DNA from: Candidatus Woykebacteria bacterium
GTDB taxonomy: Bacteria > Patescibacteriota > Microgenomatia > Woykebacterales > RBG-16-39-9b
NCBI GenBank assembly: GCA_040876345.1
Contig: JBBDPM010000006.1
Location: 182,431 to 246,430, forward strand
Direction of reading: 5' to 3'
Length of the DNA: 64,000 nt
Shown: positions 37,142 to 51,015 of the stretch, one piece after another
Layout of the letters: the number at the start of each line of letters is the position of its first letter
Numbering within the stretch: position 1 is the first letter of the stretch
Translations under genes and position numbers: made by a program
Notes under the pieces: generated by a model
Seen by the model: the letters and a program-made list of their open reading frames with translations, nothing else
Told to the model about the DNA's origin: nothing
The model's database searches: none

Positions 37142-38311
37142 CTAGAGGTTAGTATCAACTTCTTCTTTCGAACGGGTTAATCGGCCTCGGAACATGAAGA
37201 GTATAAAAGCGACCAAAACTGCTATTCCAATAAGGCCCAAACCAAGCATCTGGGTTGTAGTTAAACCTTGTAGCGCCAGCGCCCCGGCAACTTTCACTTC
37301 AAATGTTTGTACCCCATCTTTCTGGGCAACCTTGACAATTTGAGAGATACTTTTACCTTGATAATCAACTAAAACAGCTCTTTCACCATCCTCCACGTCT
37401 TTATAATTAGCTGCCCCTTTTTCATCGGTACCAACTTCTCCATACGATACTAAAGTAACTTTAGCTCCTTCAATTGGAACTCCATCTTTGTCGACAACTT
37501 TAATCTGAACTTGATATCCGGGCACTGTAAAGCTTTGATCAGTTGATACTCCCTTATTACCAGAGCCATCCTTACTTATCACTCTGTAATGAACGGCAGT
37601 ACCAGGCTCCAAAAGCCTTTTATCAAGGGCGATGGCGTGGCTTTTCGTAAGCTTGCTACTAGCTGCAATAATGCCGTATTTACTAGTTGGTCCCCATTCA
37701 ACCGTAGAATCTGAATCTTCATTTGTCGCCCAGGCTATAGTAGCACTTGTCCGGGTAAGCTTAGTAACCTTGACGCTAGAGACTTTTGGCGCTGTTTTAT
37801 CCTGAGCTTTAGGTTTTGGCGGTGGTGGCGCAGCTTTAAAAGTGTAGGTTCCGCCTGCTACACTAGTCAAAAGGTTTGCGCCACTTCCACTACCTGCCAA
37901 ACCTGATCCAGACTTGTTGATGCTAACTGAAGCTGTACCAGAGCTAACTTTGGCTCTGAATTTAATAGTAGCAACTAAATTGCTGCCAGATTTACCAGAT
38001 CCTGACACTCCTGCAACAACATAAATCGATCCACTACCGCCCTTAGATAAATCATACAAAGTAAAAGAACCGTTCCCGAAACCAAGGAAATCCAACTTAT
38101 TAGCTGGGTAAGTTATCCTTGTCTCAATTGCGTTTACTTTGGACCCACTACTCACCCTTAAAGAAACTGTAAAATCGCTGCCTTGAGTTACTGTAGAGCT
38201 CGAGGGAGAAAGAGAAAGGCTACCAGCACCTAGAACTGGCTTTGTAACAAGGAAAGAAAAAATTCCGAGGAAAAAAATTACGGTTAGGAATCTGGACAGA
38301 ATCTTTATCAT
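37142..38311 (-). CDS. Membrane-anchored cohesin-like domain protein with FN3 domain (putative dockerin receptor / scaffoldin)
   Basis: Signal peptide, about 140-aa beta-sandwich with a cohesin-like pattern (TVSLRVSSGSKVNAIETRITYPANKLDFLGF...ATIKFRAKVSSGTASV), Pro-rich linker, FN3 (SATIAWAT...EWG...YRV), C-terminal TM anchor. Confidence 0.5.
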   Translation of the reverse strand: MIKILSRFLTVIFFLGIFSFLVTKPVLGAGSLSLSPSSSTVTQGSDFTVSLRVSSGSKVNAIETRITYPANKLDFLGFGNGSFTLYDLSKGGSGSIYVVAGVSGSGKSGSNLVATIKFRAKVSSGTASVSINKSGSGLAGSGSGANLLTSVAGGTYTFKAAPPPPKPKAQDKTAPKVSSVKVTKLTRTSATIAWATNEDSDSTVEWGPTSKYGIIAASSKLTKSHAIALDKRLLEPGTAVHYRVISKDGSGNKGVSTDQSFTVPGYQVQIKVVDKDGVPIEGAKVTLVSYGEVGTDEKGAANYKDVEDGERAVLVDYQGKSISQIVKVAQKDGVQTFEVKVAGALALQGLTTTQMLGLGLIGIAVLVAFILFMFRGRLTRSKEEVDTNL

Positions 38312-38356: not shown

Positions 38357-41300
38357 TTAACTCCCCCAATTAGATAGCAGTATTGAGAGATCAAAGATAT
38401 CTACTCTACCACGTCCATCTAGGTTAGAGGCTTGATCAGTAGTTCCCCATTTGGAAAGAAGGAAGGAAAGGTCAAAGATGTTTACCTTCCCGTCACCATC
38501 TAGATCCCCTATCTTACCCTTTCTTACTCCAGTATTCGAGGTAGTCACTGTTAGGATAGACGATACACCTTGGTTAGTAGCAGCATCATAGGCTTTGGCC
38601 TGGAGGGTGTGTTTGGCATTGGTGTACTTGGTTGTGTCCCAAGAGTAGGTGTAGGAAGAGGTTGTGTCAGAGCCTACTGGTTTACCATCAATGAAAAACT
38701 CTACCTTGGCAACCCCGACGTTGTCAGAAGCAGCAGCTGATACGATCACTGTCTTAGAGACTGTTGCTCCAGAAGCTGGTGAGGTGATCGAAACAGTTGG
38801 TTTAGCGCTGTCTCCGGAAGGCGGAGGGGATACATTACTCACCGTCACAGTAACTGAGGCTGTTGCATTCATTCCAGCAGCATCTGAAGCTTTAGCTTTA
38901 AGGGTGTGGGAGCCATTAGTTAGTTTAGTGGTATCAATGCTACAGGTATATGTAGAAGTAGTGTCTGTACAGGTAGCGGTACTGGCATTGTCGATGAAGA
39001 ACTCTACCTTGGTAACACCCACATTGTCAGAAGTAGTTGCCGCCACGTTGACTGTGCTAGATACTGTGGCCCCATTGGCTGGGGAGGTGATTGAGACAGT
39101 TGGGTTAGTGGTGTCTCCAGGTGGTGGTGTGGTGCCACCTGAGGAGACAGTTAGTACTAGATTGTCAAAGTTAGTATCCCAACCATTGGAGCTCATGACC
39201 GTCACATTCGTACAGGGGGTGATCCAACCAGTCTCAATAATTGATATTGTCTTGGAAGGTACACTTACTTGTTTATCTGGATTACCAGAACACTTCAAAG
39301 TGACTGTGCTGGAAGAGCCTCCACCGTTATCAGCATCAATTGAGTCAAAAATAGCTGTTTTTAGTATTGTAAAGGAGGCTTGGGTAAGACTTGCTCCATT
39401 AAAAGAGATACTGTTGCTATTAAACTTATCAAAAGGACCCGAGAGTACCCAATTCCCTGTTCCCCAGTCGATGAGACCAGAGGGGTGCTGACCAGAAAGT
39501 GGAGGGTTTCCGGAAGAAACGGTAATGGTATTGAAATCTACGATCACTTTCTGGGGAGGGTTGTCTACTTCAACTTTTACGGCGCTACTTGTGGAGGAGT
39601 TCCCAGACCCATCCGTAGCCTTGGCCGTAAGGGTGTGATCCCCGTTAGTAACACTGGTGGAATCCCAACTTATGGTAAAGATACCGTTAGTTTGCGTGTC
39701 TGTCTCTTTGATAGGGCTACCATCTACCAAAAGCTCTACCTTGGAGACTACCGAGTCATCAGTAGCCGATACACTAACATCCACCTGTCCCCTAGCAAGA
39801 CCGTTATCTAGAGGTGAGATAATACTAACACTTGGCGGACCTAAATCTCCGGCCATTCCTGTCGGTATGAAGCCCGTGTCGTTGGTGACTAGGACTTTAT
39901 CTATCTTTGCACCAGCTTCTCTACCGATGATGTTAAGGGTGTGAGTACCCTCTGTGAGGTTTAGGGATATCTTGCTGCTAGTGTTCCCATCTTTATGATC
40001 TACCCATTGGTAGGAGCCAAAGGTAACTCCACCATTACCTACTATAATGCCAGGTTTAGTATCAACTCGTAGCCAAAAGGAGTCGCTACTTGCATTAGCG
40101 GCTAACATCCTTGTCCAAATATTGTAACTACCCGCCTCTGGAACTGAGAACTGTATTGTTGAAGAGCCAGTGTTAGTTGGCAGGGGTGGGTTAGAATTGC
40201 TGGTGCTGATCGTTATGTTAGCCGAGTTTTTGTTACCTAGCTTATCAAATGCTTGGGCCATTAAGGTGTGACTGCCATCAAAAAGCTCAGCTGTGTCTAA
40301 AGTAAATTTGTATGGAGAAGCAGCTGGAAAGGAGTGGATAATCCCATCCACGTAAAATTCTACGAGGGCAATACCAGAAGCGTCCGATGCTGAAGCTTCA
40401 ACATTTATTGTATCAGAAACCGTCGCTCCATTGGCAGGGCTGATGAAATTGACTGTTGGTGGTATAGTCTCGGGTGGGTCTTTTTCGTCAATATCGCTGG
40501 CGCTAGTACAGCCAGGGTCGGCAGGGAAATCTATCTTGCCATCAGAGTCATTATCGATAGTGTCTGAACAGGCAGGACCAAGGGGTGTAGCTGTGCTCCA
40601 GATATGGACATCAAAGAAGGTAGGCCAGATATTGCGGAATCTCACCTCCTTTACACCTTCCGGAATTGGCACCATGACCGTACCCAAATATGTTTTTGTA
40701 GCCTGCTGAAGAGTTGGGGTATGCCAGGTATTAAACCCCTCAACATCAAGAGCATATTGCGGTATCTTATCAACTTTGGCAAAACGGAGATACGAGTTTG
40801 GTGGCGAAGGTCTTTCAAAATTTACTGTGGCGCTTAGGCTTGGATCCTTAAAGATTGAATTGGCGCGGCACGTATTATCCCTTTGTTCTAAACAGCTGTG
40901 AATCACCGTAAAAGGAATCGCCGGGGAAAGACTTACGTCATCAATGTGCCAGGTATTCTCATGCATGGGCTCACACGGATCGTCTATACAAGAGCCTTTA
41001 CCACTATTGTAAGCAAGCTGCATAAATTGCACGGTTGCGTTGGTCCAGGAAAGCGCTGGAATATCATCATTGAAAAAACAGTGGTTGTATTCCGGCATAC
41101 AAAGTGAGAGATGAGTGCGGCTCATTTTCATCACAAACAAATCCCTGCGTGTGGCTGAAGGCGTGAGGAATGAATTCCATCCACTAGTGCGATTGTGCAA
41201 GACATTAACGCCTCCATTGAAAACCTTTAAATTCCAAAGACCATTTCCCAGCATTTCTATTCCAAGAGATTCTGAAGGAGGTCCTTGGTCATCAAAAAAG

Positions 41301-42049
41301 GGGTACATAAGAGTGCGGTCAAAGTCACGATGACCACTCTGGTAACCAGGGGTGAGTACTACTGCTGGCCATTCCCTATCACTGCCTCGCTCAGTGCTCA
41401 TGCGCCAGCTAAAAGTTGCTTCTCCTTGGGACCAATCAAGTAAGGCCGCTGGAGTCATAACCACAACTGGGAAGTTTTCAAACCCACCAGCAGACGTCAT
41501 AATATGGTTTCGGCAGTTAAACATCATATTTTCCCGCATATCAACCATATGGGTAGCCGGCGGCGGTCCACAATCAGAGCCGTGTTGCGCCATGATATGT
41601 CCTTCGGTCCCAAAATTATCACTATTAACATCCATTGACCAGTTTTGGCGACGGTACATTGATTCTGGCGCTGCCGGTGTTCCATCGAAGGTGTCTAGAA
41701 AGGAGTTGCCACTTGTAGCCTGGAGGACTTTGGTAGGAGATTCTCCTTGGGCTGTATTAGTAATTGTGGAAGAAACATATTTCCCTCCCGAAGCATTGGT
41801 GTCATTGCCCGCTGTCATTGGGGCTGTAAGTTGGCCGTTCTCCCCTTCTAACCAGATCTTGGAGATTACTGCTGCTCTTCCGCCAAGGTTTACTCCCTTG
41901 AAAGCAAGTAATACTGTAGCCGGAATTGCTACGAGAATTAATACGGTGGCTAGAACAACTAAGTAGTCTCTGCCTTTATATGGGGGATTAATAGATTTAC
42001 GGTAGTGTTTGAACAGATCAGTGGCTCTCATAGGTAGAGAAAACTTCAT
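38357..42049 (-). CDS. Giant surface protein (1230 aa): N-terminal anchor, unknown 500-aa domain, multiple Ig-like domains, C-terminal double dockerin repeat
   Basis: N-term MRATDLFKHYRKSINPPYKGRD plus TM; repeated Ig-like modules (TVSITSPANGATVS...VGVTKVEFFIDG...YSWDTT); C-term DLDGDGKVNIFDLSFLLSKWG...DGRGRVDIFDLSILLSNWG. Confidence 0.75.
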   Translation of the reverse strand: MKFSLPMRATDLFKHYRKSINPPYKGRDYLVVLATVLILVAIPATVLLAFKGVNLGGRAAVISKIWLEGENGQLTAPMTAGNDTNASGGKYVSSTITNTAQGESPTKVLQATSGNSFLDTFDGTPAAPESMYRRQNWSMDVNSDNFGTEGHIMAQHGSDCGPPPATHMVDMRENMMFNCRNHIMTSAGGFENFPVVVMTPAALLDWSQGEATFSWRMSTERGSDREWPAVVLTPGYQSGHRDFDRTLMYPFFDDQGPPSESLGIEMLGNGLWNLKVFNGGVNVLHNRTSGWNSFLTPSATRRDLFVMKMSRTHLSLCMPEYNHCFFNDDIPALSWTNATVQFMQLAYNSGKGSCIDDPCEPMHENTWHIDDVSLSPAIPFTVIHSCLEQRDNTCRANSIFKDPSLSATVNFERPSPPNSYLRFAKVDKIPQYALDVEGFNTWHTPTLQQATKTYLGTVMVPIPEGVKEVRFRNIWPTFFDVHIWSTATPLGPACSDTIDNDSDGKIDFPADPGCTSASDIDEKDPPETIPPTVNFISPANGATVSDTINVEASASDASGIALVEFYVDGIIHSFPAASPYKFTLDTAELFDGSHTLMAQAFDKLGNKNSANITISTSNSNPPLPTNTGSSTIQFSVPEAGSYNIWTRMLAANASSDSFWLRVDTKPGIIVGNGGVTFGSYQWVDHKDGNTSSKISLNLTEGTHTLNIIGREAGAKIDKVLVTNDTGFIPTGMAGDLGPPSVSIISPLDNGLARGQVDVSVSATDDSVVSKVELLVDGSPIKETDTQTNGIFTISWDSTSVTNGDHTLTAKATDGSGNSSTSSAVKVEVDNPPQKVIVDFNTITVSSGNPPLSGQHPSGLIDWGTGNWVLSGPFDKFNSNSISFNGASLTQASFTILKTAIFDSIDADNGGGSSSTVTLKCSGNPDKQVSVPSKTISIIETGWITPCTNVTVMSSNGWDTNFDNLVLTVSSGGTTPPPGDTTNPTVSITSPANGATVSSTVNVAATTSDNVGVTKVEFFIDNASTATCTDTTSTYTCSIDTTKLTNGSHTLKAKASDAAGMNATASVTVTVSNVSPPPSGDSAKPTVSITSPASGATVSKTVIVSAAASDNVGVAKVEFFIDGKPVGSDTTSSYTYSWDTTKYTNAKHTLQAKAYDAATNQGVSSILTVTTSNTGVRKGKIGDLDGDGKVNIFDLSFLLSKWGTTDQASNLDGRGRVDIFDLSILLSNWGS

Positions 42050-42133
42050 TGGTAACCAAAATTTATAATATTAGTAATTTGATTATCCTGTCTCCCAACA
42101 AACAAGTCAATAGTACTAAAGTACTAAATCGTG

Positions 42134-45100
42134 TTACTTACCCCATCTGGAAAGCAGAATCGATAAATCAAATATATTAACCTTTCCTTTATCATCTAGA
42201 TTGGAGTTTGGATCGCTTGTATTCCAGTCGGCAAGTAATATTGAAAGATCAAAAATATTAATCTTTGTATCTCCATTAAGATCCGCATATTTAAGTGTTC
42301 GCACAGCAACTCCTGAAGATCTGGCTGATTCATTACCGGCAGCATCATAAGCAGATACCTGATAAGTGTAAGCTGTGTAAGATTTCAGGCCGATATCAGT
42401 GTAGGAAGTACTGCTAACAGACTGTATTCTCACGTTGTTACGATAAATGTGATAGCCTTTGACTCCAACATTATCGGTTGAGGCTTTCCAAGCAATTTTA
42501 GTCTCGGAATCCGAAATAGCCTGCCCAGTAGAAACAGTTGGTACTGATGGTTTCTGGATATCTCCCACTGGTTGGTTTGAAACATTGACACTAATTTGAG
42601 CACTTCCCTCATTTGGCTTGGCATCAAAGGCCTTCACTAAAATTGTGTGGGAACCATTACCTATTATAGTTGTATCCCAACTATAAACATATGGGGAGGC
42701 GGTATCGGTAAATTTCCGAGCTCCGTCAATATTAAACTCAACTGATGAAACAGTACCTGAGTCATCAGTAGCTGTGGCTTGGATATTGACTCTATCAATA
42801 ACCGTCTGACCATTTAATGGGTTCGTTATAGTAACAACTGGCGCCGTTGTATCCTGCGGAGGTATTATTTCTTGGTAAGTTGCGGTGTAGGTAGTATTTG
42901 AAGCTAGCGTATCAATATTATGAGTAGCGGCTCCTGCGTCTGACCAACTTACAAATTGGTAGTTTTTACCTGCCAAAGTTTGGTTAGAGGCGGCGCCTAA
43001 GATACGGGTAAAGCCAACCACACTATCTGTAGAGTAAGGAGCTGTTCTTGGTTGTCCGTCTAAGGTAACCTGCAAACCGGCTGGCGAAGAATTAATTGTA
43101 ATAGTTGATTTTCGGGGAATAACGTCAACGAAGGTTGTATTTTGTAAGCCTTTAGAATCGGTTACCTTCAAGTGAACTCTGTACCACACATTAGCCGATG
43201 ACTCCCCTACCTTTGGTATTGTAAGGGAGCCTGTTTTAGTGCCGTCATTAAGGGGTGGGTCCAGAAATGGATGGGTGTGGGTGTCGTGATGAAAAACAAT
43301 TGTCCAACTGAAGGCACTAGCTGCCAGTGTCCCATCCTCCGGATCAGTACCGCTACCTGAAAAGTTGATCATTCCCCCCGCTGAATATAAAGTTTGGTCA
43401 GCTGGAGCGGTAATTGTTGCCGTTGGCGGAAGATTAGGAGTCCCGGTACCAGCGTCAAAAACAAAATTATCAAAATTAGTATCCCAACCATTGCTACTTC
43501 CAATTGTTACGGTGGTACAATTATTGTTCCAGCCAGTTTGAATTGTAGTTAATAAATTGGCGGACACGTTGCGGGTGATGGTGGTATTACCAGCGCAGCT
43601 TATTGTAATTGTGCTGTTACTTACCCCAGAAATATCAACGCTGAGAAGTCTCTTTGGGCTCACAAATGTAAAAGTAGCCGAAGTTGGCCCAGCCCCGTTG
43701 AAAGCTATACTGTTATCGGGGAAGGAAGCAAAAGCTGCCCCAACCAACCACTTATTACTTCCCCAATCAGCTATACCAGTTGGGTATTGGCCATTAAGAA
43801 TCCCGGTTGGTCGATCGTTGAAACTAATTATCCCCGCATTACCGACATTTATGCTGATCGGGCTTGAATTATTTGATACATTATTGCTATTAGTAACCGT
43901 CAGAATGGCTTGAAAAATTCCGTTTGAATTGTAAGTATGATTAGCTAAAAGGCCTGTCCCTACAGCCCCATCCCCAAAATCCCATGAATAAGTAAGGGCT
44001 AGACCATTAGGATCGGTGCTGCCTAATCCGGAAAAGCTCACCGTCAACGGAGCATTTCCCGAAGTTAGATTAGCGTTAGCTACCGCCGTTGGGGCCCCTT
44101 TTTGAATTTTGTAGACTGTTCCATCGGATATATCCAAATAATACAAAGACCCGTCTGGACCAATTTTTAGATCCACTGGATTGGAAGCGCCGGTTGCAAA
44201 ACTAGTGACCTGATTATTGGATGGCTCAAGCTTCCTGATAAAATTCTGGATGTAGTCAGCAAAGAAATAATCGCCGTCAAAATCGGCTGGAAACTGAGTC
44301 CCACGGTAAAAGGTACCCCCTGTTATCGCCGAAGACCCGCTGTGAGGGTAGGAGTAGATTGGATAAGTGAAGGCTGAATTATTGCAACTCCCTACGCCTG
44401 AGCCTTGCGGACCTTCACAGTTTGGCCAACCGTAATTTTTACCCTTTTGGATGTCATTTACCTCTTCCCAAGCCCCTGCTCCAACATCATTCAAGAATAT
44501 TTTGCCAGTGGCTGGGTCTACAGCAAAAGTAAATGGGTTACGAAGCCCATAAGCCCATATTTCACCTCGCTGACCGGATTGACCAACAAAAGGATTATCC
44601 GAAGGAATAGTCCCATCTTTATTTATCCTTAGAATTTTACCAGATAGATTGCTAAGGTCTTGGGAATTTGTGGCAACTGATCCTCCATCGCCCGCGGTTA
44701 TGTAAAGTTTCCCATCAGTACCAAAGTGAACCGCTCCAGCATTGTGATTTCCAGCATCCGAAGCGATATTATCAACCAATACTGTCTCGCTTCCAGCCTC
44801 GACAATGTCTGGGTTTGTAGCACTTGCTCGAAAACGACTGACCCTATTTTTCACCGGGCTAGAGCGTGTGTAATATACATATATATAGCGATTGTTTTGA
44901 AAATCAGGGTCAAAAGCTATACCAAGCAGTCCCCTTTCGGAAACTGTATTAACCGAGACTGTCAAAAACGGGGTTGAGAGTAAGTTACCATTTTTAATAA
45001 CCCGCAAGCTTCCCCCTTTTTCAGAAACAAAAAGCCTGCCATCTGGTGCAAACTCCATGGCAGTCGGGATTGACAAACCAGATACTAGAGGAGTTTCAGC

Positions 45101-45286
45101 ATAACCGGAAGGAACTGTGGTCGCTGCTTGAGGAGATTTTATTGGGTCCTCGCTTTTTAAAGCAAGTCGGACTGTTAAAGGTATCGCGACAATAAGTAAA
45201 ATAAGTGCAAGCAAGGATACAACGTGCGAGGGTTTCTTGTGATTGAATTTTTTTATCACGGCAGGCATATTATCCAAATTTACCAA
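42134..45286 (-). CDS. PQQ-dependent sugar (glucose/sorbosone) dehydrogenase-family beta-propeller protein with PKD, Ig-like, FN3 domains and C-terminal dockerin
   Basis: GSDH-family motifs GLLGIAFDPDF, HNAGAVHFGTDGKLYIT, GLRNPF, NYGWP; PKD WDFGDG; FN3; C-term DLNGDTKINIFDLSILLADW...KGKVNIFDLSILLSRWG. Confidence 0.75.
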   Translation of the reverse strand: MVNLDNMPAVIKKFNHKKPSHVVSLLALILLIVAIPLTVRLALKSEDPIKSPQAATTVPSGYAETPLVSGLSIPTAMEFAPDGRLFVSEKGGSLRVIKNGNLLSTPFLTVSVNTVSERGLLGIAFDPDFQNNRYIYVYYTRSSPVKNRVSRFRASATNPDIVEAGSETVLVDNIASDAGNHNAGAVHFGTDGKLYITAGDGGSVATNSQDLSNLSGKILRINKDGTIPSDNPFVGQSGQRGEIWAYGLRNPFTFAVDPATGKIFLNDVGAGAWEEVNDIQKGKNYGWPNCEGPQGSGVGSCNNSAFTYPIYSYPHSGSSAITGGTFYRGTQFPADFDGDYFFADYIQNFIRKLEPSNNQVTSFATGASNPVDLKIGPDGSLYYLDISDGTVYKIQKGAPTAVANANLTSGNAPLTVSFSGLGSTDPNGLALTYSWDFGDGAVGTGLLANHTYNSNGIFQAILTVTNSNNVSNNSSPISINVGNAGIISFNDRPTGILNGQYPTGIADWGSNKWLVGAAFASFPDNSIAFNGAGPTSATFTFVSPKRLLSVDISGVSNSTITISCAGNTTITRNVSANLLTTIQTGWNNNCTTVTIGSSNGWDTNFDNFVFDAGTGTPNLPPTATITAPADQTLYSAGGMINFSGSGTDPEDGTLAASAFSWTIVFHHDTHTHPFLDPPLNDGTKTGSLTIPKVGESSANVWYRVHLKVTDSKGLQNTTFVDVIPRKSTITINSSPAGLQVTLDGQPRTAPYSTDSVVGFTRILGAASNQTLAGKNYQFVSWSDAGAATHNIDTLASNTTYTATYQEIIPPQDTTAPVVTITNPLNGQTVIDRVNIQATATDDSGTVSSVEFNIDGARKFTDTASPYVYSWDTTIIGNGSHTILVKAFDAKPNEGSAQISVNVSNQPVGDIQKPSVPTVSTGQAISDSETKIAWKASTDNVGVKGYHIYRNNVRIQSVSSTSYTDIGLKSYTAYTYQVSAYDAAGNESARSSGVAVRTLKYADLNGDTKINIFDLSILLADWNTSDPNSNLDDKGKVNIFDLSILLSRWGK

Positions 45287-45316
45287 CCTTGGCCATTCCT
45301 AAAAATTTAGACAAAA

Positions 45317-47410
45317 CTAACCCCAATTAGATAAAAGTATAGATAAATCAAATATATCAACTTTTTCTTCATCATTCAAGTTGGAGGCGGAATCTGTTGT
45401 TGCCCATTTTGAGAGTAAAATAGACAGATCAAAGATATTTACTTTTCCATCAATATTAATATCTCCTTTCCTTCCGACTCTTACAGCCACGCTATCCGAA
45501 TCTGATCCACCGGATCCAGAGCAAGTTAACGAAAAAGTTTTGTTGGATTTAATCCTACTGATTACAGCTGAACCATTAGCAGCCTTGCTGCCTGACCAAC
45601 CACCAGAAGCAGCGCAAGATGAGGCACCAGATGAGGACCAAGATAAAGTAGCTGAAGTGTTGTAAATTATAGTAACTGGGCCGTTTGAACCGTTTGCTTT
45701 TATGTCAACTGAGGGTGGTGTTGGTGTCCCAACATCATTGGAAACAAAAACAGTTATGATGGTTGACTCTCCGATGTTAGGGACTGCGTCGTGAGCTTTC
45801 GCTTGCAAGGTGTGGGAACCGTTGCTAACACTTTTTGTATCCCAACTAAAAGAATAAGGATCGAGCGAAGTATCCGTTGATTTTAAAGCTCCATCGACAT
45901 AAAACTCCACTTTCGTGACGCCGATGTTATCGGATGCTGTAGCTATTACGGAAACAGTATTTGATACCGTTTGGTTTTGTGGGGGTGATTGTATAGAAAC
46001 CGACGGCTTTTCTGTGTCTGGTATAGGGTTGTTTACATTAACAGAAACTGTTTGGGAAGCTTGGTTGTTAGCTGCGTCATACGCTTTCGTAGCTACTGTG
46101 TGGTTACCATTAGTTACACTTCGACTATCCCAACTGCATGTATACGGAGCGGTCGTGTCTGTGCAGAGAGCTGCTCCGCTGTTATCTAAATAAAACTCCA
46201 CTCTTGTCACCCCAACGTTGTCGGTTGCGGTAGTGGAAATATTCACTGTACCCGAAACAGTTGTCCCATTTGTTGGAGAGGTTATTGTTAGCTGAGGTAG
46301 TTCTGCATCGCCAGGCGGTGCAGCAGTTCTAGGACCAATATCGCTTTTCCCTTGGGCGAAAGTTTTTGCGGCTGCAAGATCAATTTGCAACCGATCGCCA
46401 GTGTGATCGTAAAAGAGCGACCAGGCAAATCCCCCAGCATAACCTTTATTGTACCAATCTGTGAAACGCTGCAAGGGGTTTGCATCAGATCCTGCATAAA
46501 ACTCCCCAATCACCAGTGGTGCATCAAGATTATATCTTGCCTTAACCGTATTATAATCTGTACAACGCGCGCACCAATTACCACTACTCATATAATCGTA
46601 CCAGTGGGCTGTGTAGTAATCCAACCCTTGCCCAACCCAAAAGGGCAATCCGTCCAAATGGGCAGAGCCAACCGAAACGTAGGCGTTCGAATTTGCGTGG
46701 ACCGAAGCGGCCACTTCTCGAACTAATGCCTGAGTTCCGGCTCTGTCAACTGTATTGTTCCACATATCCCACTCTGGTTCATTAAATATCTGCCAGGTAA
46801 GTACCCTAGGGTTGTTTCGATAACGACTAAACAACTGACCCAAGACGCTCGCAAGTTGAGCGCGTTGAGTAGAATTGTTTATCCAAGAACTTGGGATGTG
46901 GCTGGGTGCAGAAAAAAGAGTAAAAACATAGTACATATCGTGCTTTTCGGCTAGCTCTAGAGCAGAATCAAAATCCTGATAAATTGCGCTGTTTAATCCG
47001 GTTGGGGCACCAGAAGCATCTTTAGTAATCTGCCAAGGGTCTCCTGGAAACACCCACCAACGGGCAACGTGCATACCGGAGTCTTTTGCCTGTACGAACC
47101 GGCTGTCAATGTCGTTATTCACGCTGGTACTACTCACGCCACTTCCTGTACCACATCCAAAATCACAACCCCAGTTGTACCAAGGCATATTAAATCCGTG
47201 TAAATACCAGTCTCCACCCTGCCAGGGAACACGAGTCCCAGGAGGAACTGCCGCTTTGCTCTTTAACCTCAATCCTTGACCAACCAAAACGACCGTTAAT
47301 GGTATTGAGAACAAAACAAAAATTGTAACCAAAATTATTAGGGTGTCTCTTCGATTGTACGGAGGATTAATGGACTTGCGGTATTGTTTGAATAAATCAG
47401 TAGCTCTCAT
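45317..47410 (-). CDS. Glycoside hydrolase family 5-like enzyme with two Ig-like domains and C-terminal dockerin
   Basis: N-term anchor MRATDLFKQYRKSINPPYNRRD; GH5 acid/base motif LTWQIFNEPE and nucleophile region VIGEFY; C-term GDINIDGKVNIFDLSILLSKW...EKVDIFDLSILLSNWG. Confidence 0.7.
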   Translation of the reverse strand: MRATDLFKQYRKSINPPYNRRDTLIILVTIFVLFSIPLTVVLVGQGLRLKSKAAVPPGTRVPWQGGDWYLHGFNMPWYNWGCDFGCGTGSGVSSTSVNNDIDSRFVQAKDSGMHVARWWVFPGDPWQITKDASGAPTGLNSAIYQDFDSALELAEKHDMYYVFTLFSAPSHIPSSWINNSTQRAQLASVLGQLFSRYRNNPRVLTWQIFNEPEWDMWNNTVDRAGTQALVREVAASVHANSNAYVSVGSAHLDGLPFWVGQGLDYYTAHWYDYMSSGNWCARCTDYNTVKARYNLDAPLVIGEFYAGSDANPLQRFTDWYNKGYAGGFAWSLFYDHTGDRLQIDLAAAKTFAQGKSDIGPRTAAPPGDAELPQLTITSPTNGTTVSGTVNISTTATDNVGVTRVEFYLDNSGAALCTDTTAPYTCSWDSRSVTNGNHTVATKAYDAANNQASQTVSVNVNNPIPDTEKPSVSIQSPPQNQTVSNTVSVIATASDNIGVTKVEFYVDGALKSTDTSLDPYSFSWDTKSVSNGSHTLQAKAHDAVPNIGESTIITVFVSNDVGTPTPPSVDIKANGSNGPVTIIYNTSATLSWSSSGASSCAASGGWSGSKAANGSAVISRIKSNKTFSLTCSGSGGSDSDSVAVRVGRKGDINIDGKVNIFDLSILLSKWATTDSASNLNDEEKVDIFDLSILLSNWG

Positions 47411-47466
47411 TTGGCAGGATGTAACTAAATTATGACTTTAGTGATTAGCTTGTGTCAACGAATAGT

Positions 47467-50400
47467 TTACTTGGTATTGATAACAAGCTTAGGAGAAAAG
47501 CTAGATCCTGACTCTTTAGATGAATAAACAACCCCATCGGAGCTAGTCGAAGCTATAGCTAAACTCAATACCCCATCCCCCTTAACTACATTGGTTAGAT
47601 TTATCGAATAGGTCTTGGCGCACGATACCTTGCCTAAGGAAGCTACTTTACTTCCTGTAGAAGGAGCTGTATTCCAGGTAATTGTTTCTTCTTCCCAATT
47701 ACCCGCTTTGTAAAAGGCACCACCTATTGGGCCGGGGTTGGTACAATAGAGTCTAAGATAGGCTGAAGTGATTGGTCTCCCCACTACCCCCAACACCTGA
47801 AATTTAAGTAAAGAGTTTCTTCTTGGAGCGTAGTCCACCACCAAGGATTTACTGGATCCATAACTAGTGTTGGGGTAGGATTTGGCTATTGTGGCATCAT
47901 CTACTGGGGTAAAGGTGAGGGTTTTTGAGTAATTAATCACAGTGGTATAAATCTGGGAGTTGTCAAAATTACCTCCTGAATCATAAGCTTTTATTAATAA
48001 ACCATAAGTTTTATTGCTGTCTAAAGTAGTATTCCAAGAATAAGAGTAAGGAGAAGCTGTGTCGATTGCCTTTAAAACCCCATCGACATAAAATTCTACT
48101 TTCGTAACCCCAGTATTATCGATAGCACTTGCAGCTACCGCAACTGTCCCAGAAACTGTTCCTCCATCGGATGGTGACGTAACAGAAACAGTCGGACTCT
48201 CTGTGTCTTGGGGTGTGATTGGCCGCTTATAGATAAGCACTCTTCCCCGATTTAAATCCGCTACATAAAGATTGTCATTTTCATCAAAAGTGGCTGAAAA
48301 CGCCATCGAGTAGAAATCCTTTAGGGATCCGTCAGGAGCGGTAGATGCGCCTAAAGGATCACGATAGATCCCTACAAACCGATGGTTTGGCGAACCAATA
48401 CTACCAGCGTGATAGGCGTTGTATCCTACTACCATTTGATTTTTCGAATCAAACGCTGGTTTCCAGGTAGCAACGTCTGGAAATATTTTCGATGCTGCAA
48501 CCGCAAAGAGAACACTTGTATTATTGGTCGGGAAAAGATCCTTGTTGAACACAAGGAGCCGGAAGTTTCCCTGTACTTCTAACGAGTGATCGGAGACAAA
48601 TAAATTACCGAGTCGGTCTAAGGCCAAAGCCCCTGGAGATCCTAGTGTTGTAGCACTTGGGCTACCACTCTGATTTGGTTGTTTGCCAGTAATGCTAGTT
48701 TGACCCAAAACCACATCCACTAAGGGGTTGGTCAGCGGATTGCGAATCCGTAACACCCGATGGTTATCGGTATCCGACACCCAAAGGAACTCACTACCAT
48801 CTGTCGCGGCAATTCCCCAGATGATTCCAAGTGATACAGTTCCACCACCCAACACTGGAAGAGTGGTAAACGTTCCACCAGGACTGCTGCCAATTACTTT
48901 CAAAGGTTGGGCTTTATTTGTCAGTGGCATCTGGTATGCAAAGATCTTTCCAAGAGCAGCATACAGACGATGATTAGCATCTGCTGTCATCACCGGGTTC
49001 CAACCATTAACCTTATCGCTGAAGCTATTAATTGAAAAACCCGGGTAGCCAATAAAACCATCGGCGTCTTTCCCATTAGTCAAGCTAATAGGATTATTCC
49101 AGTATAATATCCGTCCATCTCCACCAACAATAAGCTGATTGTCTGACGCGACTACTCCGGTAACCTGAGCACCAAGATCACTCGGGCCCATTAAATTTCC
49201 ACTATTGGAGTTGGTCCCAAAAAACTGCTTGGAAGGATATCGAATTCGTCCTGCGTCGATATCTTGCTTAAGGTAAACAGCGTAATCATAACCTGGAGCT
49301 GTCGCGATAATATTACCCGCAGTGTCAATTCCAATCGACCCCGTCGTATCTCCAAGAACATTACCGTCTCCTCTCACACCCAGCTCTAAAATTCGGCTCT
49401 GGGTATCTTCGTCCCAAAGCTCGAGAACATGAGCACCTTTGTTTGCGACCCATACCTTCCCTGGTCTTGTAGGATCGAAATCAATACCATGCGGAATTGA
49501 AAATCCAGAACCAAAAATTTCGCCATTCATGCCGTTTGTAAATGGTGCCTTAAACCTCATCACGCGACTGTTGCCCTCATCAGTAACATAGACCGAGCCG
49601 CTGCTATTTACTCTGACCACACTAGGGGTGGAGAGCCGATTCAACCCACTACCGGCACTTCGAGAGGTAAAGCCAGATTGCCCCAAAACTAAATCAGCTG
49701 TATTGGAACCAGCCGGAAATCGCAGTACCCGATGATTACCACTATCGGCTATCCAAACATTTCCAGTAGCATCAACATCAACTCCGGCTAAAAAGGCATT
49801 AACGCAGCAGGGGTCGAAACGCAGACTAGTAGAATCAGGTGATGAGGCACCTTTGTTTGGTTGGTTTCCAGTAAAATCGCTTTGCCCCCAAACGTCATCA
49901 GCTACCGTATCAGTTTCAAAGGGCCGGATATATTTTAAGACGCGGTGGTTAAAATAATCAGTGACATAAAGATTCCCAACTAAATCCACCGCCATGCTCG
50001 CTCCCATTATTGATTCCTGTATACTAATCGAAGACTCATTTAGTGAGCACAGGCTTGAAGCACTAGCTGCCGCTCTAACCGGGTGGTTCTGAAAGGCTGA
50101 ATCTCCATTACAGGCCGACGAATTCATGTTTGGCTGCCCTATAACGAGAGAGGGTGTGCAGTTAAGGGGGTTTGTGGTTGAAGCAATACACTGATCCCAG
50201 CTAAATCCCAAAATACGGCTGTTGCCGGCATCGAATACATAAAGCCTTTGGGAGCTTGAAGTCCGATCAATTATTGCACCGTGGGGGTTAAATAGTTTGT
50301 TCGGTACAACCTTATTGGGTGTAATTTCCGAAAAATCAGGCTGCCCAACAATCACATCTGGCCACTCATCCCCTACTATACCCCGAGGAGCTAGACTAGA

Positions 50401-50568
50401 CTGGGCTTGGGCGTATTCTATTGACTCTTTAACTTGAAAAATTGAAAAAGTCAGTGGTATTGCAAGAATTGTTAATAATGCACAGAATACGATTATAACA
50501 TCTTTTTTTCTATAAGGAGAAGTTATAGCTTCACGGCATTTTTTAATGCGGCGGTTTAATTTTTCCAT
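47467..50568 (-). CDS. NHL-repeat beta-propeller surface protein with Ig-like domains (1033 aa)
   Basis: Repeated NHRVL motifs (NHRVLKY, NHRVLRF, NHRVLRI); Ig-like module (PTVSVTSPSDGGTVSGTVAVAASAIDNTGVTKVEFYVDG); same N-terminal anchor architecture; no dockerin. Confidence 0.7.
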   Translation of the reverse strand: MEKLNRRIKKCREAITSPYRKKDVIIVFCALLTILAIPLTFSIFQVKESIEYAQAQSSLAPRGIVGDEWPDVIVGQPDFSEITPNKVVPNKLFNPHGAIIDRTSSSQRLYVFDAGNSRILGFSWDQCIASTTNPLNCTPSLVIGQPNMNSSACNGDSAFQNHPVRAAASASSLCSLNESSISIQESIMGASMAVDLVGNLYVTDYFNHRVLKYIRPFETDTVADDVWGQSDFTGNQPNKGASSPDSTSLRFDPCCVNAFLAGVDVDATGNVWIADSGNHRVLRFPAGSNTADLVLGQSGFTSRSAGSGLNRLSTPSVVRVNSSGSVYVTDEGNSRVMRFKAPFTNGMNGEIFGSGFSIPHGIDFDPTRPGKVWVANKGAHVLELWDEDTQSRILELGVRGDGNVLGDTTGSIGIDTAGNIIATAPGYDYAVYLKQDIDAGRIRYPSKQFFGTNSNSGNLMGPSDLGAQVTGVVASDNQLIVGGDGRILYWNNPISLTNGKDADGFIGYPGFSINSFSDKVNGWNPVMTADANHRLYAALGKIFAYQMPLTNKAQPLKVIGSSPGGTFTTLPVLGGGTVSLGIIWGIAATDGSEFLWVSDTDNHRVLRIRNPLTNPLVDVVLGQTSITGKQPNQSGSPSATTLGSPGALALDRLGNLFVSDHSLEVQGNFRLLVFNKDLFPTNNTSVLFAVAASKIFPDVATWKPAFDSKNQMVVGYNAYHAGSIGSPNHRFVGIYRDPLGASTAPDGSLKDFYSMAFSATFDENDNLYVADLNRGRVLIYKRPITPQDTESPTVSVTSPSDGGTVSGTVAVAASAIDNTGVTKVEFYVDGVLKAIDTASPYSYSWNTTLDSNKTYGLLIKAYDSGGNFDNSQIYTTVINYSKTLTFTPVDDATIAKSYPNTSYGSSKSLVVDYAPRRNSLLKFQVLGVVGRPITSAYLRLYCTNPGPIGGAFYKAGNWEEETITWNTAPSTGSKVASLGKVSCAKTYSINLTNVVKGDGVLSLAIASTSSDGVVYSSKESGSSFSPKLVINTK

Positions 50569-50631
50569 AGGCAGGAATTAATTAAATTATGGGTTTGTTA
50601 GGTACAAATGTCAAATTATGAAAAATTTACT

Positions 50632-51015
50632 TTAAGAGCCAATTACAAATTTTTCAAAATCTTCATCAAAAGCAAAGGATTGGTCAATATTATAATACCT
50701 CATTACAGCAAAGGAGGTACAATACGAAACATTTTTAGATTTTATTCCTTTAAAAATTTTCCAAGCCGCTCCTTCCAGATCTTCATCAATACTTATCAAC
50801 TTAATTCTAGGATCAAACTCTTCTCCGAAAGCTATCAATCTATCTTTACTTACCTTTTGAGAAATTACTGTGTAAGTTTCCGCAAGAATATAATTGGTAG
50901 TTATGAGGCTGTCTTCACGCTTTTCAAGCTGAAAGGCAACTTCGTGGGCTTTTTTATGATTTGGATCAGCTGGACTCCTGAGGGCAACGAAAGCACTAGT
51001 GTCAACAAAAATCAT
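50632..51015 (-). CDS. vapC: PIN-domain toxin VapC
   Basis: MIFVDTSAFVAL N-terminal acidic motif; 127 aa; conserved PIN acidic positions. Confidence 0.8.
   Translation of the reverse strand: MIFVDTSAFVALRSPADPNHKKAHEVAFQLEKREDSLITTNYILAETYTVISQKVSKDRLIAFGEEFDPRIKLISIDEDLEGAAWKIFKGIKSKNVSYCTSFAVMRYYNIDQSFAFDEDFEKFVIGS

What the first reader, a model, noticed from the sequence alone, without database searches (positions are those of the whole stretch)
38357..50568. Conserved N-terminal anchor motif shared by four functionally unrelated giant proteins
The proteins at 38357, 42134, 45317 and 47467 all start with a short basic cytoplasmic segment containing K-x-I-N/S-P-P-Y-x-x-R-D (MRATDLFKHYRKSINPPYKGRD / MRATDLFKQYRKSINPPYNRRD / ...REAITSPYRKKD). 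This is followed by a TM helix with an (A)IPLTV core (VAIPATVLLA / SIPLTVVLV / VAIPLTVRLA / LAIPLTFSIF). Conservation of the leader, rather than the passenger domains, suggests a dedicated sorting/secretion or processing signal that a specific peptidase or sortase-like system might recognise. It is not a canonical Sec signal peptide.
Basis: seen in the sequence. Interest (0 to 1): 0.5.

Follow-up and report, generated by a model that had tools for sequence, protein, structure and literature searches.

The report
Conserved secretion leader on dockerin proteins
A small group of uncultured, tiny-genome bacteria (Woykebacteria) puts the same unusually long, highly conserved 53-residue N-terminal leader on many unrelated surface proteins, most of which end in a dockerin module that plugs into a membrane-anchored cohesin encoded next door; it looks like a lineage-specific secretion signal that has not been described.

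Summary
Three of the four genes (p1, p3, p4) carry [KR]-x-I-[NT]-[PS]-P-Y-x-x-[RK]-D, then 13 residues, then I-P-[LA]-T. The fourth (p2) shares only the IPLTV membrane core. It is not local paralogy. A profile of the leader finds 207 protein clusters among 1.84 billion, and 149 of the best 150 matches lie at residues about 1-60. DNA-pattern scans find it in other Woykebacteria and related Patescibacteria, usually in tandem arrays. The p1 and p3 leaders are saturated at synonymous sites, so the peptide is under selection.

The module spans 53-54 residues:
- a basic n-region, MRAxDLFKxYRKS-INPPY-xxKD;
- a 21-22-residue apolar segment with G-T...L...IPLTV;
- then Q-x-R-E-P-x-S-[RK]-A|A.

Conservation collapses straight after that Ala, and the -3/-1 signal-peptidase rule is met there in 60% of members against about 12% background. 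About two thirds of members end in a type I dockerin. A cohesin protein with an ordinary signal peptide and a C-terminal anchor lies directly downstream in several genomes; its fold was predicted for the window copy.

Best reading (0.6): an extended, lineage-specific Sec signal peptide for dockerin cargo, comparable to YSIRK-type leaders. No dedicated peptidase or sortase was found. No Pfam or NCBIfam model and no paper covers it.

The parts
41870..42031 (-). p1 leader (54 aa): MRATDLFKHYRKSINPPYKGRDYLVVLATVLILVAIPATVLLAFKGVNLGGRA|A. The family consensus points to Met at 42031 as the start. The ORF and the NCBI gene call begin 6 codons upstream, at 42049.
   Evidence: Leader HMM score 74.9 bits. 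88.0 bits, E 2.1e-20, in the 1.84-billion-protein search, matching residues 7-66 of the NCBI call.
38357..42049 (-). p1 gene. Order of parts: leader, an unnamed roughly 400-aa domain family, an acidic disulfide repeat, an unnamed roughly 125-aa domain, four Big_7 domains, a C-terminal dockerin (38360-38530).
   Evidence: Dockerin_1 scores 22.1 bits, E 1.8e-4, just under the gathering score of 22.9.
45122..45268 (-). p2 leader. It is divergent and has no PPY motif: MPAVIKKFNHKKPSHVVSLLALILLIVAIPLTVRLALKSEDPIKSPQA|A. It shares only the AIPLTV core and the Ala-Ala end with the family.
   Evidence: Leader HMM score 14.9 bits, over model positions 23-52 only. The NCBI call is 1044 aa, so the start is at 45268.
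42134..45286 (-). p2 gene. Order of parts: GSDH (PQQ glucose/sorbosone dehydrogenase) propeller, PKD, the unnamed roughly 125-aa domain, Big_7, fn3, a C-terminal dockerin (42137-42310).
   Evidence: Dockerin_1 scores 28.7 bits, above the gathering score of 22.9.
47249..47410 (-). p3 leader (54 aa): MRATDLFKQYRKSINPPYNRRDTLIILVTIFVLFSIPLTVVLVGQGLRLKSKA|A.
   Evidence: Leader HMM score 81.5 bits. 93.9 bits, E 2.8e-22, matching residues 1-60.
45317..47410 (-). p3 gene. Order of parts: leader, GH5 beta-mannanase-like domain, two Big_7 domains, a C-terminal dockerin (45320-45490).
   Evidence: PDB sequence search: 2c0h mannanase, E 7.4e-12. Big_7. Dockerin_1 scores 22.3 bits, E 1.5e-4.
50404..50568 (-). 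p4 leader, a divergent member: MEKLNRRIKKCREAITSPYRKKDVIIVFCALLTILAIPLTFSIFQVKESIEYAQA|Q.
   Evidence: Leader HMM score 39.4 bits.
47467..50568 (-). p4 gene. Order of parts: leader, NHL-repeat propeller, Big_7, CBM96/DNRLRE domain. It has no dockerin.
37142..38311 (-). Cohesin anchor protein. Parts: an ordinary short signal peptide (38225-38311, MIKILSRFLTVIFFLGIFSFLVTKPVLGA), a cohesin module (37832-38230), beta-sandwich spacers, and a C-terminal TM helix with a basic tail (37145-37255). It is the likely receptor for the dockerins of p1-p3.
   Evidence: Pfam Cohesin scores 26.3 bits on the N-terminal part, above the gathering score of 24.1. AlphaFold2 model pLDDT 94.1. The top Foldseek PDB hits are cohesins, with TM-score 0.85 and E 2.5e-10. 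Orthologues lie directly downstream of leader-dockerin genes in L007, L008, L012, L021, L034, L046, L055 and L058.

Best explanation
The shared N-terminus is a lineage-specific, extended Sec-type signal peptide of 53-54 residues. Woykebacteria and close Patescibacteria relatives use it for a modular set of cell-surface proteins, most of which carry a C-terminal dockerin.

Its layout, numbered from the Ile of INPPY as position 0:
1. A basic n-region that stays in the cytoplasm (net charge about +3). It has a hydrophobic periodicity that suggests a short amphipathic helix (M-R-A-x-D-L-F-K-x-Y-R-K-S). The near-invariant I-N-P-P-Y turn follows, then x-x-[KR]-D at the membrane edge.
2. A 21-22-residue apolar h-region with conserved positions: Thr+15, Leu+19, Ile+22, Pro+23, Thr+25 and Val+26.
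3. A c-region, Q-x-R-E/D-P-x-S/G-[RK]-Ala(+39), followed by Ala.

Inferred mechanism. The precursor inserts N-in through SecYEG. Signal peptidase I cuts after Ala+39 or +40. The mature protein is released from the membrane and held at the surface by its dockerin, which binds the cohesin of a type I membrane-anchored protein encoded at the end of the same gene array (window 37142-38311). The mid-helix Pro may help clear the remnant peptide by an intramembrane protease such as the RseP-type M50 enzyme.

The conserved n-region and TM face go beyond what Sec needs. They most likely add pathway, timing or location specificity, as the YSIRK/GXXS motif does for staphylococcal surface proteins.

Shown: the anatomy, the family, its N-terminal position, selection on the peptide, the association with dockerins, the gene order with the cohesin gene, and the predicted cohesin fold of the window protein. 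Inferred: export, the cleavage site, dockerin-cohesin pairing, and any specificity role.
For: - Family and position. A profile of 9 leaders finds 207 clusters at E<=1e-3 and 91 at E<=1e-10 among 1.84 billion representatives. 149 of the best 150 matches start within the first 35 or so residues.
- Independent DNA-pattern scans. 19 genuine N-terminal leaders against 7 ORF-less chance hits in 185,579 species genomes. 36 further metagenome loci.
- Anatomy from ungapped columns of 151 members: Y-4 0.68, R-3 0.91, I0 0.87, N1 0.89, P2 0.96, P3 0.99, Y4 0.99, K/R7 0.80, D8 0.81, T15 0.72, L19 0.84, P23 0.89, T25 0.79, A39 0.78. From +42 the columns fall to background.
- Cleavage-site signature. The -3/-1 rule is met at +39 in 60% of members, against about 12% at downstream positions. 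n-region charge is +3.2 and c-region charge is +1.3.
- Homology argument for cleavage. Cohesin modules that follow an ordinary signal peptide (...VHA|AAS-LSLSP) start 5-6 residues after the predicted cut. The same modules behind the INPPY leader start 8-9 residues after Ala+39.
- Cargo logic. Dockerin_1 is found in 43 of 64 members of at least 400 aa, and in 35 of 50 3'-complete leader ORFs in genomic loci. Dockerin proteins in the same loci that lack the leader have ordinary short signal peptides, so both leaders deliver to the same compartment.
- Cohesin partner. Conserved order [leader-dockerin genes]n then cohesin anchor, directly adjacent in the window and 7 other loci (L007, L008, L012, L021, L034, L046, L058) and one gene removed in L055.
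- Selection. Between p1 and p3, 19 of 32 identical residues use different codons. The four genes share no 20-mers.
Against: - The apolar segment is 21-22 residues long, which is the length of a membrane anchor rather than a typical h-region.
- The c-region is long (9 residues) and carries Arg and Glu.
- 15% of members have Pro at -3 relative to Ala+39, which signal peptidase I disfavours.
- Specific residues inside the apolar segment are conserved far more than Sec targeting requires. This hints at a sequence-specific partner that was not identified.
- No signal-peptide predictor could be run, and there is no proteomic evidence for a mature N-terminus.
- p4 and about 30% of members have no dockerin, so dockerin retention cannot be the whole story.
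Confidence: 0.6

Rival explanations
1. The leader is an uncleaved N-terminal signal anchor, which makes these type II membrane proteins. The 21-22-residue helix would keep each protein tethered. The cytoplasmic YRKS-INPPY-xxKD motif would bind a cytoplasmic or membrane partner, for example for clustering or polar placement. The conserved TM face (T15, L19, P23, T25) would mediate helix-helix packing. The C-terminal dockerin would then cross-link the distal end to cohesins on the same cell or on another cell.
For: - The apolar run has full TM length, 21-22 residues.
- Residue-specific conservation inside the helix and in the cytoplasmic motif exceeds what Sec or signal peptidase I recognition needs.
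- The c-region is long and charged, and 15% of members have Pro at -3.
- p4 and roughly 30% of members have no dockerin, so they would need some other means of retention.
Against: - Conservation stops abruptly at a small-x-Ala site that satisfies the -3/-1 rule five times more often than background.
- Cohesin modules begin only 8-9 residues after that Ala. That matches the spacing seen behind ordinary cleaved signal peptides and would leave almost no linker for an anchored protein.
- A dockerin is redundant on a protein that is already membrane-anchored.
- Equivalent dockerin cargo in the same loci uses ordinary cleavable signal peptides.
Confidence: 0.25
2. The leader is a sorting tag for a dedicated processing enzyme, an N-terminal counterpart of the LPXTG/sortase, PEP-CTERM/exosortase or GlyGly-CTERM/rhombosortase systems. 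A specific membrane protease, such as an M50, a rhomboid or a specialised signal-peptidase paralogue, would recognise IPLTV and/or REPxSRA and cut or transfer the protein.
For: - The tag is tripartite, with a charged tail, a TM helix and a conserved extracytoplasmic motif. This mirrors the C-terminal sorting signals.
- A helix-breaking Pro-x-Thr is conserved in mid-membrane.
- The tag is restricted to one narrow lineage and occurs several times per genome.
- A second, small M50 peptidase gene lies 11 kb from the array, at 61656-62321.
Against: - No peptidase, sortase or rhomboid gene recurs beside leader genes in 52 loci. The recurrent neighbours are mreBCD-pbp2, guaA, topA, dprA, the L11 operon, and GH94 with GT1.
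- The IP[LA]T motif lies inside the apolar core, out of reach of a sortase-type active site.
- The same AIPLTV and RxRA features occur in broader leader classes that lack INPPY, so they are not specific to this tag.
- Co-distribution with any enzyme could not be tested.
Confidence: 0.1
3. The similarity is only a by-product of recent tandem duplication or gene conversion of a 5' gene segment among neighbouring paralogues, with no function of its own.
For: - The four genes are adjacent. p1 and p3 have 19 of 22 identical n-region residues.
- Tandem arrays of leader genes are the rule: 25 of 52 loci hold two or more.
Against: - The p1 and p3 leader DNA is only 61% identical, with third-position identity 0.37. 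19 of the 32 conserved residues use different codons, and the genes share no 20-mers.
- The same leader occurs on 207 protein clusters that carry unrelated passengers. Several genomes and many metagenomes hold it.
Confidence: 0.02

Closest known systems
YSIRK/GXXS signal peptides of staphylococcal and streptococcal surface proteins (PMC5962339, PMC11841062, PMC11370438)
   Same: Both are long, cleavable Sec signal peptides with a conserved motif at the n/h boundary and conserved small or polar residues in the h-region. Both are carried by a subset of surface proteins with unrelated passengers. Both are paired with a C-terminal surface-retention module, LPXTG there and a dockerin here. Both coexist with ordinary signal peptides in the same genome. 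In the known system the motif sets the place of secretion and is not needed for export as such.
   Different: The sequences differ: Y-R-K-S-I-N-P-P-Y-x-x-K-D here, against Y-S-I-R-K-x-x-x-G-x-x-S. Hmmscan of six leaders against Pfam and NCBIfam at E<=10 returned no signal-motif family. This leader is longer, at 53 aa. Its h-region has TM length with a central Pro. It occurs in Patescibacteria. Its retention module is non-covalent (dockerin-cohesin). No localisation data exist.
Other motif-bearing extended signal peptides: ESPR of autotransporters and two-partner-secretion proteins, and KxYKxGKxW of Gram-positive serine-rich glycoproteins
   Same: These are N-terminal extensions with a conserved, basic, aromatic-containing motif ahead of an otherwise Sec-like h/c region. 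They mark a class of large surface proteins.
   Different: There is no sequence relationship; two searches returned nothing of this kind. The lineages and export contexts differ (outer-membrane secretion, accessory Sec). Here the h- and c-regions are conserved as well.
Cellulosome-type cohesin-dockerin display, in cellulolytic clostridia and ruminococci, plus non-cellulosomal cohesin/dockerin modules
   Same: Type I dockerin duplicated-segment modules sit at the C-termini of diverse enzymes. A cohesin module of canonical fold sits on a cell-anchored protein. Adaptor proteins carry both a cohesin and a dockerin.
   Different: The anchor is a single-cohesin protein held by a C-terminal TM helix, not by SLH domains or sortase. 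The cargo is mostly proteases, propellers, Ig-like and lectin-like modules, with only an occasional glycoside hydrolase. The host is a roughly 0.6-0.9 Mb Patescibacteria genome. A dedicated conserved leader is not, to my knowledge, a feature of cellulosomal enzymes.
C-terminal tripartite sorting signals: LPXTG/sortase, PEP-CTERM/exosortase, GlyGly-CTERM/rhombosortase
   Same: Each is a short lineage-restricted tag made of a motif, a TM helix and a charged cluster. Each is shared by many unrelated surface proteins in a genome.
   Different: Those tags are C-terminal and each has a cognate processing enzyme, often encoded nearby. This tag is N-terminal, has the polarity of a signal peptide, and no cognate enzyme was found.

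Membership tests
Sec-type (signal peptidase I) signal peptide | Tripartite layout: a positively charged n-region, an uninterrupted apolar h-region and a polar c-region, at the extreme N-terminus. | tested here: met
   n-region net charge +3.2. Apolar run, median 21 residues. c-region Q-x-R-E-P-x-S-[RK]-A. N-terminal in 149 of the 150 best matches.
Sec-type (signal peptidase I) signal peptide | Small, uncharged residues at -3 and -1 of a site shortly after the h-region. | tested here: met
   The rule is satisfied at +39 in 60% of 139 members, against about 12% background. Ala occupies +39 in 78%. Conservation ends at +40/+41. Caveat: 15% have Pro at -3.
Sec-type (signal peptidase I) signal peptide | h-region of typical length, about 7-20 residues, and a short c-region of 3-7 residues. 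| tested here: not met
   The apolar run is 21-22 residues and the c-region is 9 residues with Arg and Glu. The leader is therefore atypical. This is the main argument for the signal-anchor rival.
Sec-type (signal peptidase I) signal peptide | Actual export and cleavage. | not testable with these tools
   No predictor such as SignalP or DeepTMHMM, and no proteomic data, were available.
YSIRK/GXXS, KxYKxGKxW and ESPR motif signal peptides | A match to the family's profile or motif. | tested here: not met
   Hmmscan of six leaders against Pfam-A and NCBIfam at E<=10 returned no signal-peptide family. That these libraries hold models for these motifs is from my own knowledge. The motif order differs on inspection.
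Tat signal peptide | The twin-arginine motif S/T-R-R-x-F-L-K ahead of a weakly hydrophobic h-region. | tested here: not met
   No conserved Arg-Arg pair. Position +6 is Arg in 25% and position +7 is Lys in 60%. No Tat model hit.
Lipoprotein (signal peptidase II) signal | A lipobox with an invariant Cys at +1. | tested here: not met
   Cys is not among the four commonest residues in any column from +28 to +45. None of the four window leaders has Cys after the h-region.
Type IV pilin-like (prepilin peptidase) signal | A G|F-T-L-[IV]-E motif before the hydrophobic helix. | tested here: not met
   The motif is absent from the consensus. No N_methyl hit on the leaders.
Sortase (LPXTG) sorting signal | A C-terminal LPXTG-type motif outside the membrane, followed by a TM helix and a basic tail. 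| tested here: not met
   The I-P-[LA]-T here is N-terminal. It lies 14 residues into a 21-22-residue apolar segment.
Type I dockerin (C-termini of p1, p2, p3) | A duplicated Ca-binding loop-helix segment that matches Pfam Dockerin_1. | tested here: met
   p2 scores 28.7 bits, above the gathering score of 22.9. p1 (22.1) and p3 (22.3) fall just below it, at E about 1e-4. 43 of 64 family members match at E<=1e-3.
Cohesin (window 37142-38311) | A nine-stranded jelly-roll cohesin fold, or a match to the Pfam Cohesin model. | tested here: met
   Pfam Cohesin scores 26.3 bits, above the gathering score of 24.1. AlphaFold2 model pLDDT 94.1. The top 8 Foldseek PDB hits, and 36 of the top 37, are cohesins; TM-score is up to 0.85 and E 2.5e-10. 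A PDB sequence-profile search found nothing. Binding to these dockerins was not tested.

The most novel reading that the evidence does not exclude
The INPPY n-region and the conserved TM face form a true address label read by a partner that has not been identified. That partner could be a specialised Sec-associated factor, a membrane protease or a positional landmark. It would route a whole repertoire of dockerin-bearing enzymes and adhesins to one site on the cell, for example the contact zone with a host cell in an episymbiotic Patescibacterium. There they would assemble on cohesin anchors into a cellulosome-like attachment and feeding complex. This would be a lineage-specific protein-sorting system defined by an N-terminal tag.
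Probability: 0.2. Interest if true: 0.75.

Novelty: new variant of a known kind. Interest (0 to 1): 0.5.

Why it matters
Patescibacteria make up a large share of uncultured bacterial diversity, and their surface proteins are thought to mediate attachment to hosts and feeding on them. How these cells sort and display such proteins is essentially unknown.

This work yields three practical things:
- A 53-residue leader profile that identifies, from sequence alone, a modular surface-protein repertoire in one lineage. The repertoire includes proteases, mannanase, propellers, lectin-like and Ig-like modules. About two thirds of members carry dockerins, and their cohesin anchor is encoded alongside.
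- A directly testable case of a signal peptide that carries information beyond 'export me', outside the Firmicutes where YSIRK is studied.
- A marker for annotating proteins that are currently labelled only 'Ig-like domain-containing' or 'hypothetical'.

If the leader turns out to be just a long signal peptide, the gain is modest: better annotation, plus a documented cohesin-dockerin display locus in a candidate phylum.

Tried and rejected
- A word-indexed homology search with one 61-aa leader found nothing. The same tool with a 22-leader alignment returned only short fragments, although these exposed sister leader classes.
- Homologues of the p1 passenger domain number 23 and look mostly non-Patescibacterial (the one organism-named hit is an Anaerolineae MAG). 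They do not carry the leader, so the leader is not inherited together with the passenger.
A DNA pattern was used instead.
- The recent-duplication idea was rejected on codon evidence.
- Tat, lipoprotein, pilin, YSIRK, KxYKxGKxW, ESPR and LPXTG were rejected.
- The search for a cognate peptidase, by clustering the neighbours of 83 leader genes, found only housekeeping synteny and a GH94+GT1 pair.
- The two M50 peptidases in the window are not linked to the array in other genomes. The first sits in the usual frr-rseP-proS context.
- The amphipathic-helix idea for the n-region gave a hydrophobic moment of 0.57 against 0.34 for shuffles, p about 0.09. That is suggestive only.
- A PDB sequence-profile search for the cohesin-like module found nothing. 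The fold search settled the question.
- Cluster look-ups gave almost no taxonomy for the metagenomic members.
- A full-text search for 'INPPY' and for signal-peptide motifs in Patescibacteria found no description.

Full report
**Source and setting.** The window is part of contig JBBEDR010000006.1 (586 kb) of a Candidatus Woykebacteria metagenome-assembled genome, GCA_040881185.1. This organism belongs to the Patescibacteria group, Microgenomates group. The finding covers four consecutive minus-strand genes:
- p1, 38357-42049
- p2, 42134-45286
- p3, 45317-47410
- p4, 47467-50568

They lie between the mreB-mreC-mreD-pbp2 cluster plus a PIN toxin on one side, and a cohesin gene, guaA and topA on the other.

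**Checking the observation.** The motif I-[NT]-[PS]-P-Y-x-x-[RK]-D, then exactly 13 residues, then I-P-x-T is present in p1, p3 and p4 and nowhere else in the window's six frames. As a degenerate DNA pattern it gives 3 matches against 0.00 expected in shuffles.

p2 lacks the PPY motif. It shares only the AIPLTV core of the membrane segment and an Ala-Ala a few residues after it. A leader HMM scores p3 at 81.5 bits, p1 at 74.9, p4 at 39.4 and p2 at 14.9.

The observation therefore holds for three of the four genes. The TM-core part holds for all four.

The passengers are indeed unrelated:
- p1 has an unnamed domain family.
- p2 has a PQQ glucose/sorbosone dehydrogenase propeller.
- p3 has a GH5 mannanase-like domain (PDB entry 2c0h, E 7.4e-12).
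- p4 has an NHL propeller with CBM96.

All four contain Big_7 Ig-like domains.

**Not recent paralogy.** The p1 and p3 leaders share 32 of 54 residues, but 19 of those 32 are encoded by different codons. Third-position identity is 0.37 and DNA identity is 61%. No 20-mer is shared among the four genes. The peptide sequence itself is under purifying selection.

**Not confined to this locus.** A scan of one genome for each of 185,579 species with the degenerate pattern gave 26 matches.
- 19 are genuine N-terminal leaders heading long ORFs.
- 7 are ORF-less chance hits.

The genuine ones come from three Woykebacteria genomes and three other Patescibacteria assemblies (two labelled 'Patescibacteria group', one Saccharimonadales). 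Three further genomes, labelled Gammaproteobacteria (two) or Nanoarchaeia, also carry them. One of these, OZ246414.1, shows the same housekeeping synteny and a GuaA that is 74% identical.

A profile of nine leaders, searched with HMMER against 1.84 billion representative proteins, found 207 clusters at E<=1e-3 and 91 at E<=1e-10. In 149 of the best 150 the match lies at about residues 1-60. The proteins range from 67 to 1575 aa. The one exception is an internal-repeat false positive.

A stricter pattern scan of JGI metagenomes added 36 loci. Across all loci, local HMMs find 83 leader ORFs in 52 loci, and 25 loci hold two or more, usually in tandem.

No Pfam-A or NCBIfam model matches the leader at E<=10. 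The string INPPY appears in no relevant paper.

**Anatomy.** Positions are numbered from the Ile of INPPY as 0. Ungapped columns of 151 members show the following.

| Region | Position and frequency |
|---|---|
| n-region | Met -13; hydrophobic at -11, -8, -7, -4; Tyr -4 0.68; Arg -3 0.91 |
| Core motif | Ile 0 0.87; Asn +1 0.89; Pro +2 0.96; Pro +3 0.99; Tyr +4 0.99; Lys/Arg +7 0.80; Asp +8 0.81 |
| Apolar segment (+9 to about +30) | Thr +15 0.72; Leu +19 0.84; Ile +22 0.74; Pro +23 0.89; Thr +25 0.79; Val +26 0.64 |
| c-region | Gln +31 0.43; Arg +33 0.54; Ser/Gly/Pro +37; Arg/Lys +38 0.55; Ala +39 0.78; Ala +40 0.40 |

From +42 onward every column is at background. The near-absence of indels over 53 residues is itself striking.

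Other measures:
- The apolar run is 21-22 residues long.
- Net charge is +3.2 before it and +1.3 after it.
- The -3/-1 rule for signal peptidase I is satisfied at +39 in 60% of members, against about 12% at downstream positions. Smaller peaks occur at +41 and +43.

The n-region periodicity suggests an amphipathic helix, but the hydrophobic moment is only marginally above that of shuffled sequences.

**What the leader is attached to.** Of 64 members of at least 400 aa, 43 match Pfam Dockerin_1 and 33 match Big_7. Their passengers include subtilases (9), M12 and M11 metallopeptidases, FG-GAP and NHL propellers, cohesin, CAP, beta-helix, DUF4185 and CBM96 domains. In all, 71 Pfam families appear.

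In genomic loci, 35 of 50 3'-complete leader ORFs end in a dockerin, and 10 begin with a cohesin-like module.

**The cohesin partner.** The gene immediately downstream of p1 (37142-38311) has these parts:
- an ordinary short signal peptide;
- a module that matches Pfam Cohesin (26.3 bits, gathering score 24.1);
- beta-sandwich spacers;
- a C-terminal TM helix with a basic tail.

An AlphaFold2 model of that module has pLDDT 94.1. It superposes on solved cohesins, including cohesin-dockerin complexes, with TM-score 0.85 and E 2.5e-10.

Orthologues of this anchor are 36-41% identical. In L007, L008, L012, L021, L034, L046 and L058 one lies directly downstream of the last leader-dockerin gene. In L055 it sits one gene away from the nearest leader ORF. 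The conserved unit is therefore an array of leader-passenger-dockerin genes followed by a cohesin membrane anchor. The array sits at housekeeping junctions: mreBCD-pbp2, guaA/topA/dprA, or the L11 operon.

**Mechanism.** The simplest reading is an extended Sec signal peptide cleaved after Ala+39 or +40, with the mature protein then held by dockerin-cohesin binding. Four observations favour cleavage:
1. Conservation ends at a small-x-Ala site.
2. Cohesin modules behind ordinary signal peptides start 5-6 residues after the predicted cut. The same modules behind the INPPY leader start 8-9 residues after Ala+39. That leaves no linker for an anchored protein.
3. A dockerin is redundant on a protein that stays anchored.
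4. Dockerin proteins in the same loci that lack the leader carry ordinary cleavable signal peptides, so both routes end in the same compartment.

Four observations count against it. The apolar segment has TM length. The c-region is long and charged. Pro occupies -3 in 15% of members. Residue-specific conservation in the n-region and inside the helix goes beyond what Sec or signal peptidase I needs.

That excess conservation suggests an extra, sequence-specific function. By analogy with YSIRK/GXXS leaders, this could be the site, timing or pathway of secretion (PMC5962339, PMC11841062). I put cleavage at 0.6, an uncleaved signal anchor at 0.25, and a dedicated processing or sorting enzyme at 0.1.

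**Search for a partner.** No S26 signal peptidase, sortase or rhomboid gene lies in the window or within 10 kb beyond its right-hand end; the left flank was not read.

Two M50 peptidases are present:
- An RseP-type enzyme at 19446-20570, in its usual frr-rseP-proS context.
- A small one at 61656-62321.

Neither recurs next to leader arrays elsewhere. Recurrent neighbours are housekeeping genes and a GH94 phosphorylase with a GT1 glycosyltransferase. Genome-wide co-distribution could not be tested with these tools.

**Relation to broader leader classes.** Searches also recovered leaders without INPPY that keep the AIPLTV core and a basic-x-Ala end:
- '...NLKNK[KR]HLL - TM - REP[ST]G/SRA' in P0036, L004 1637-2791, L004 2791-4782 and L018 2138-3637.
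- '...[AS]PS[HN]SRT - AIPLTV - QQQELRQRA' in P0038-P0041.

The p2 leader (KKPSH...AIPLTV...SPQAA) resembles the second class. The h- and c-region design therefore seems to be a wider habit among related organisms, whose taxonomy was not established here. The YRKS-INPPY-xxKD n-region is the lineage-specific addition.

**Verdict.** This is a real, undescribed, lineage-restricted N-terminal leader family of about 200 clusters. It marks a cohesin-dockerin surface-display repertoire in Woykebacteria and close relatives. It is a new variant of a known kind, the motif-bearing signal peptide, and not a new category. The proposed specific peptidase or sortase is not supported. Interest is moderate, at 0.5.

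Noticed in passing
window 27300-31100: This stretch has GC of 0.53-0.54, against about 0.43 around it. It holds only short overlapping ORFs on both strands. There is no Rfam match even at E<=0.01, and gene calls here have no Pfam hits. It could be a decayed foreign insert or an unknown non-coding element.
   Followed up: partly
window 39146-39547 (p1) and 43451-43834 (p2): p1 and p2 share an unnamed domain of roughly 125 aa that ends ...GW(D/N)TNF(D/K)N(L/F)V. The two copies are 46% identical, E 5e-34. There is no Pfam hit. The same domain sits at the C-terminal ends of distant p1 homologues P0001, P0011, P0016 and P0022.
   Followed up: partly
window about 40500-41750 (p1 residues about 100-500): The N-terminal passenger domain of p1 belongs to a family with 20 clear full-domain homologues of 412-731 aa among the 23 hits. 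Conserved motifs include HG.DC.PPPATH and P.TWHWDN. Almost none has a Pfam domain. Function unknown.
   Followed up: no
L004, L006, L018 (OZ246414.1); L012 (DATBWR010000016.1); L002 (CAZAIV010000089.1): Assemblies labelled 'uncultured Gammaproteobacteria' (OZ246414.1, a 915-kb chromosome, and CAZAIV010000089.1) or 'Nanoarchaeia' (DATBWR010000016.1) carry INPPY leader genes. OZ246414.1 also shows Woykebacteria-type synteny and a GuaA 74% identical to the window's, so its label looks wrong; DATBWR has a cohesin anchor next to its leader gene.
   Followed up: partly
window 42032-42080, 47411-47450, 50569-50610 (upstream of p1, p3, p4): The three motif-bearing genes share an upstream sequence, (C/T)ATAA(A)TTT(A/T)(A/G)(G/A)TTA(C/A), about 12-25 nt before the start codon. 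p3 and p4 also share TCCTGCC just before the ATG. No obvious Shine-Dalgarno sequence is present. This may be a promoter -10 element with a short leader. In p1 the element sits so close to the annotated ATG at 42049 that the family-consensus start at 42031 looks more likely.
   Followed up: no
window 19446-20570 and 61656-62321: The window holds two Peptidase_M50 (site-2 protease) genes. One is RseP-like with PDZ domains, in the frr-rseP-proS context. The other is a small 221-aa enzyme next to def-fmt. Both are candidates for clearing the Pro-containing leader remnant, but nothing links them to the array.
   Followed up: partly
window 50632-51015 (-), 31961-32415 (+): Toxin-antitoxin genes flank the region. 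A PIN-domain gene lies between p4 and pbp2. A HicB-HicA pair lies next to topA.
   Followed up: no
L004 1637-2791 and 2791-4782; L018 2138-3637; P0036-P0041: Sister leader classes lack INPPY but keep the AIPLTV core and a basic-x-Ala end: '...NLKNK[KR]HLL...REPSGRA' and '...PSHSRT...QQQELRQRA'. They occur in tandem with INPPY-leader genes. The p2 leader resembles the second class.
   Followed up: partly
L034 1540-5123, and L040, L049, L056, L058, L062: A GH94 glycoside phosphorylase gene followed by a GT1 glycosyltransferase gene recurs just upstream of leader-gene arrays. GH94 is seen in 7 loci and GT1 in 9. This may simply be synteny within one sub-lineage.
   Followed up: partly
window 59854-61227 (+): Peptide deformylase and methionyl-tRNA formyltransferase are encoded as a single fused ORF of 457 aa in the ORF list, 450 aa in the NCBI call.
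   Followed up: no
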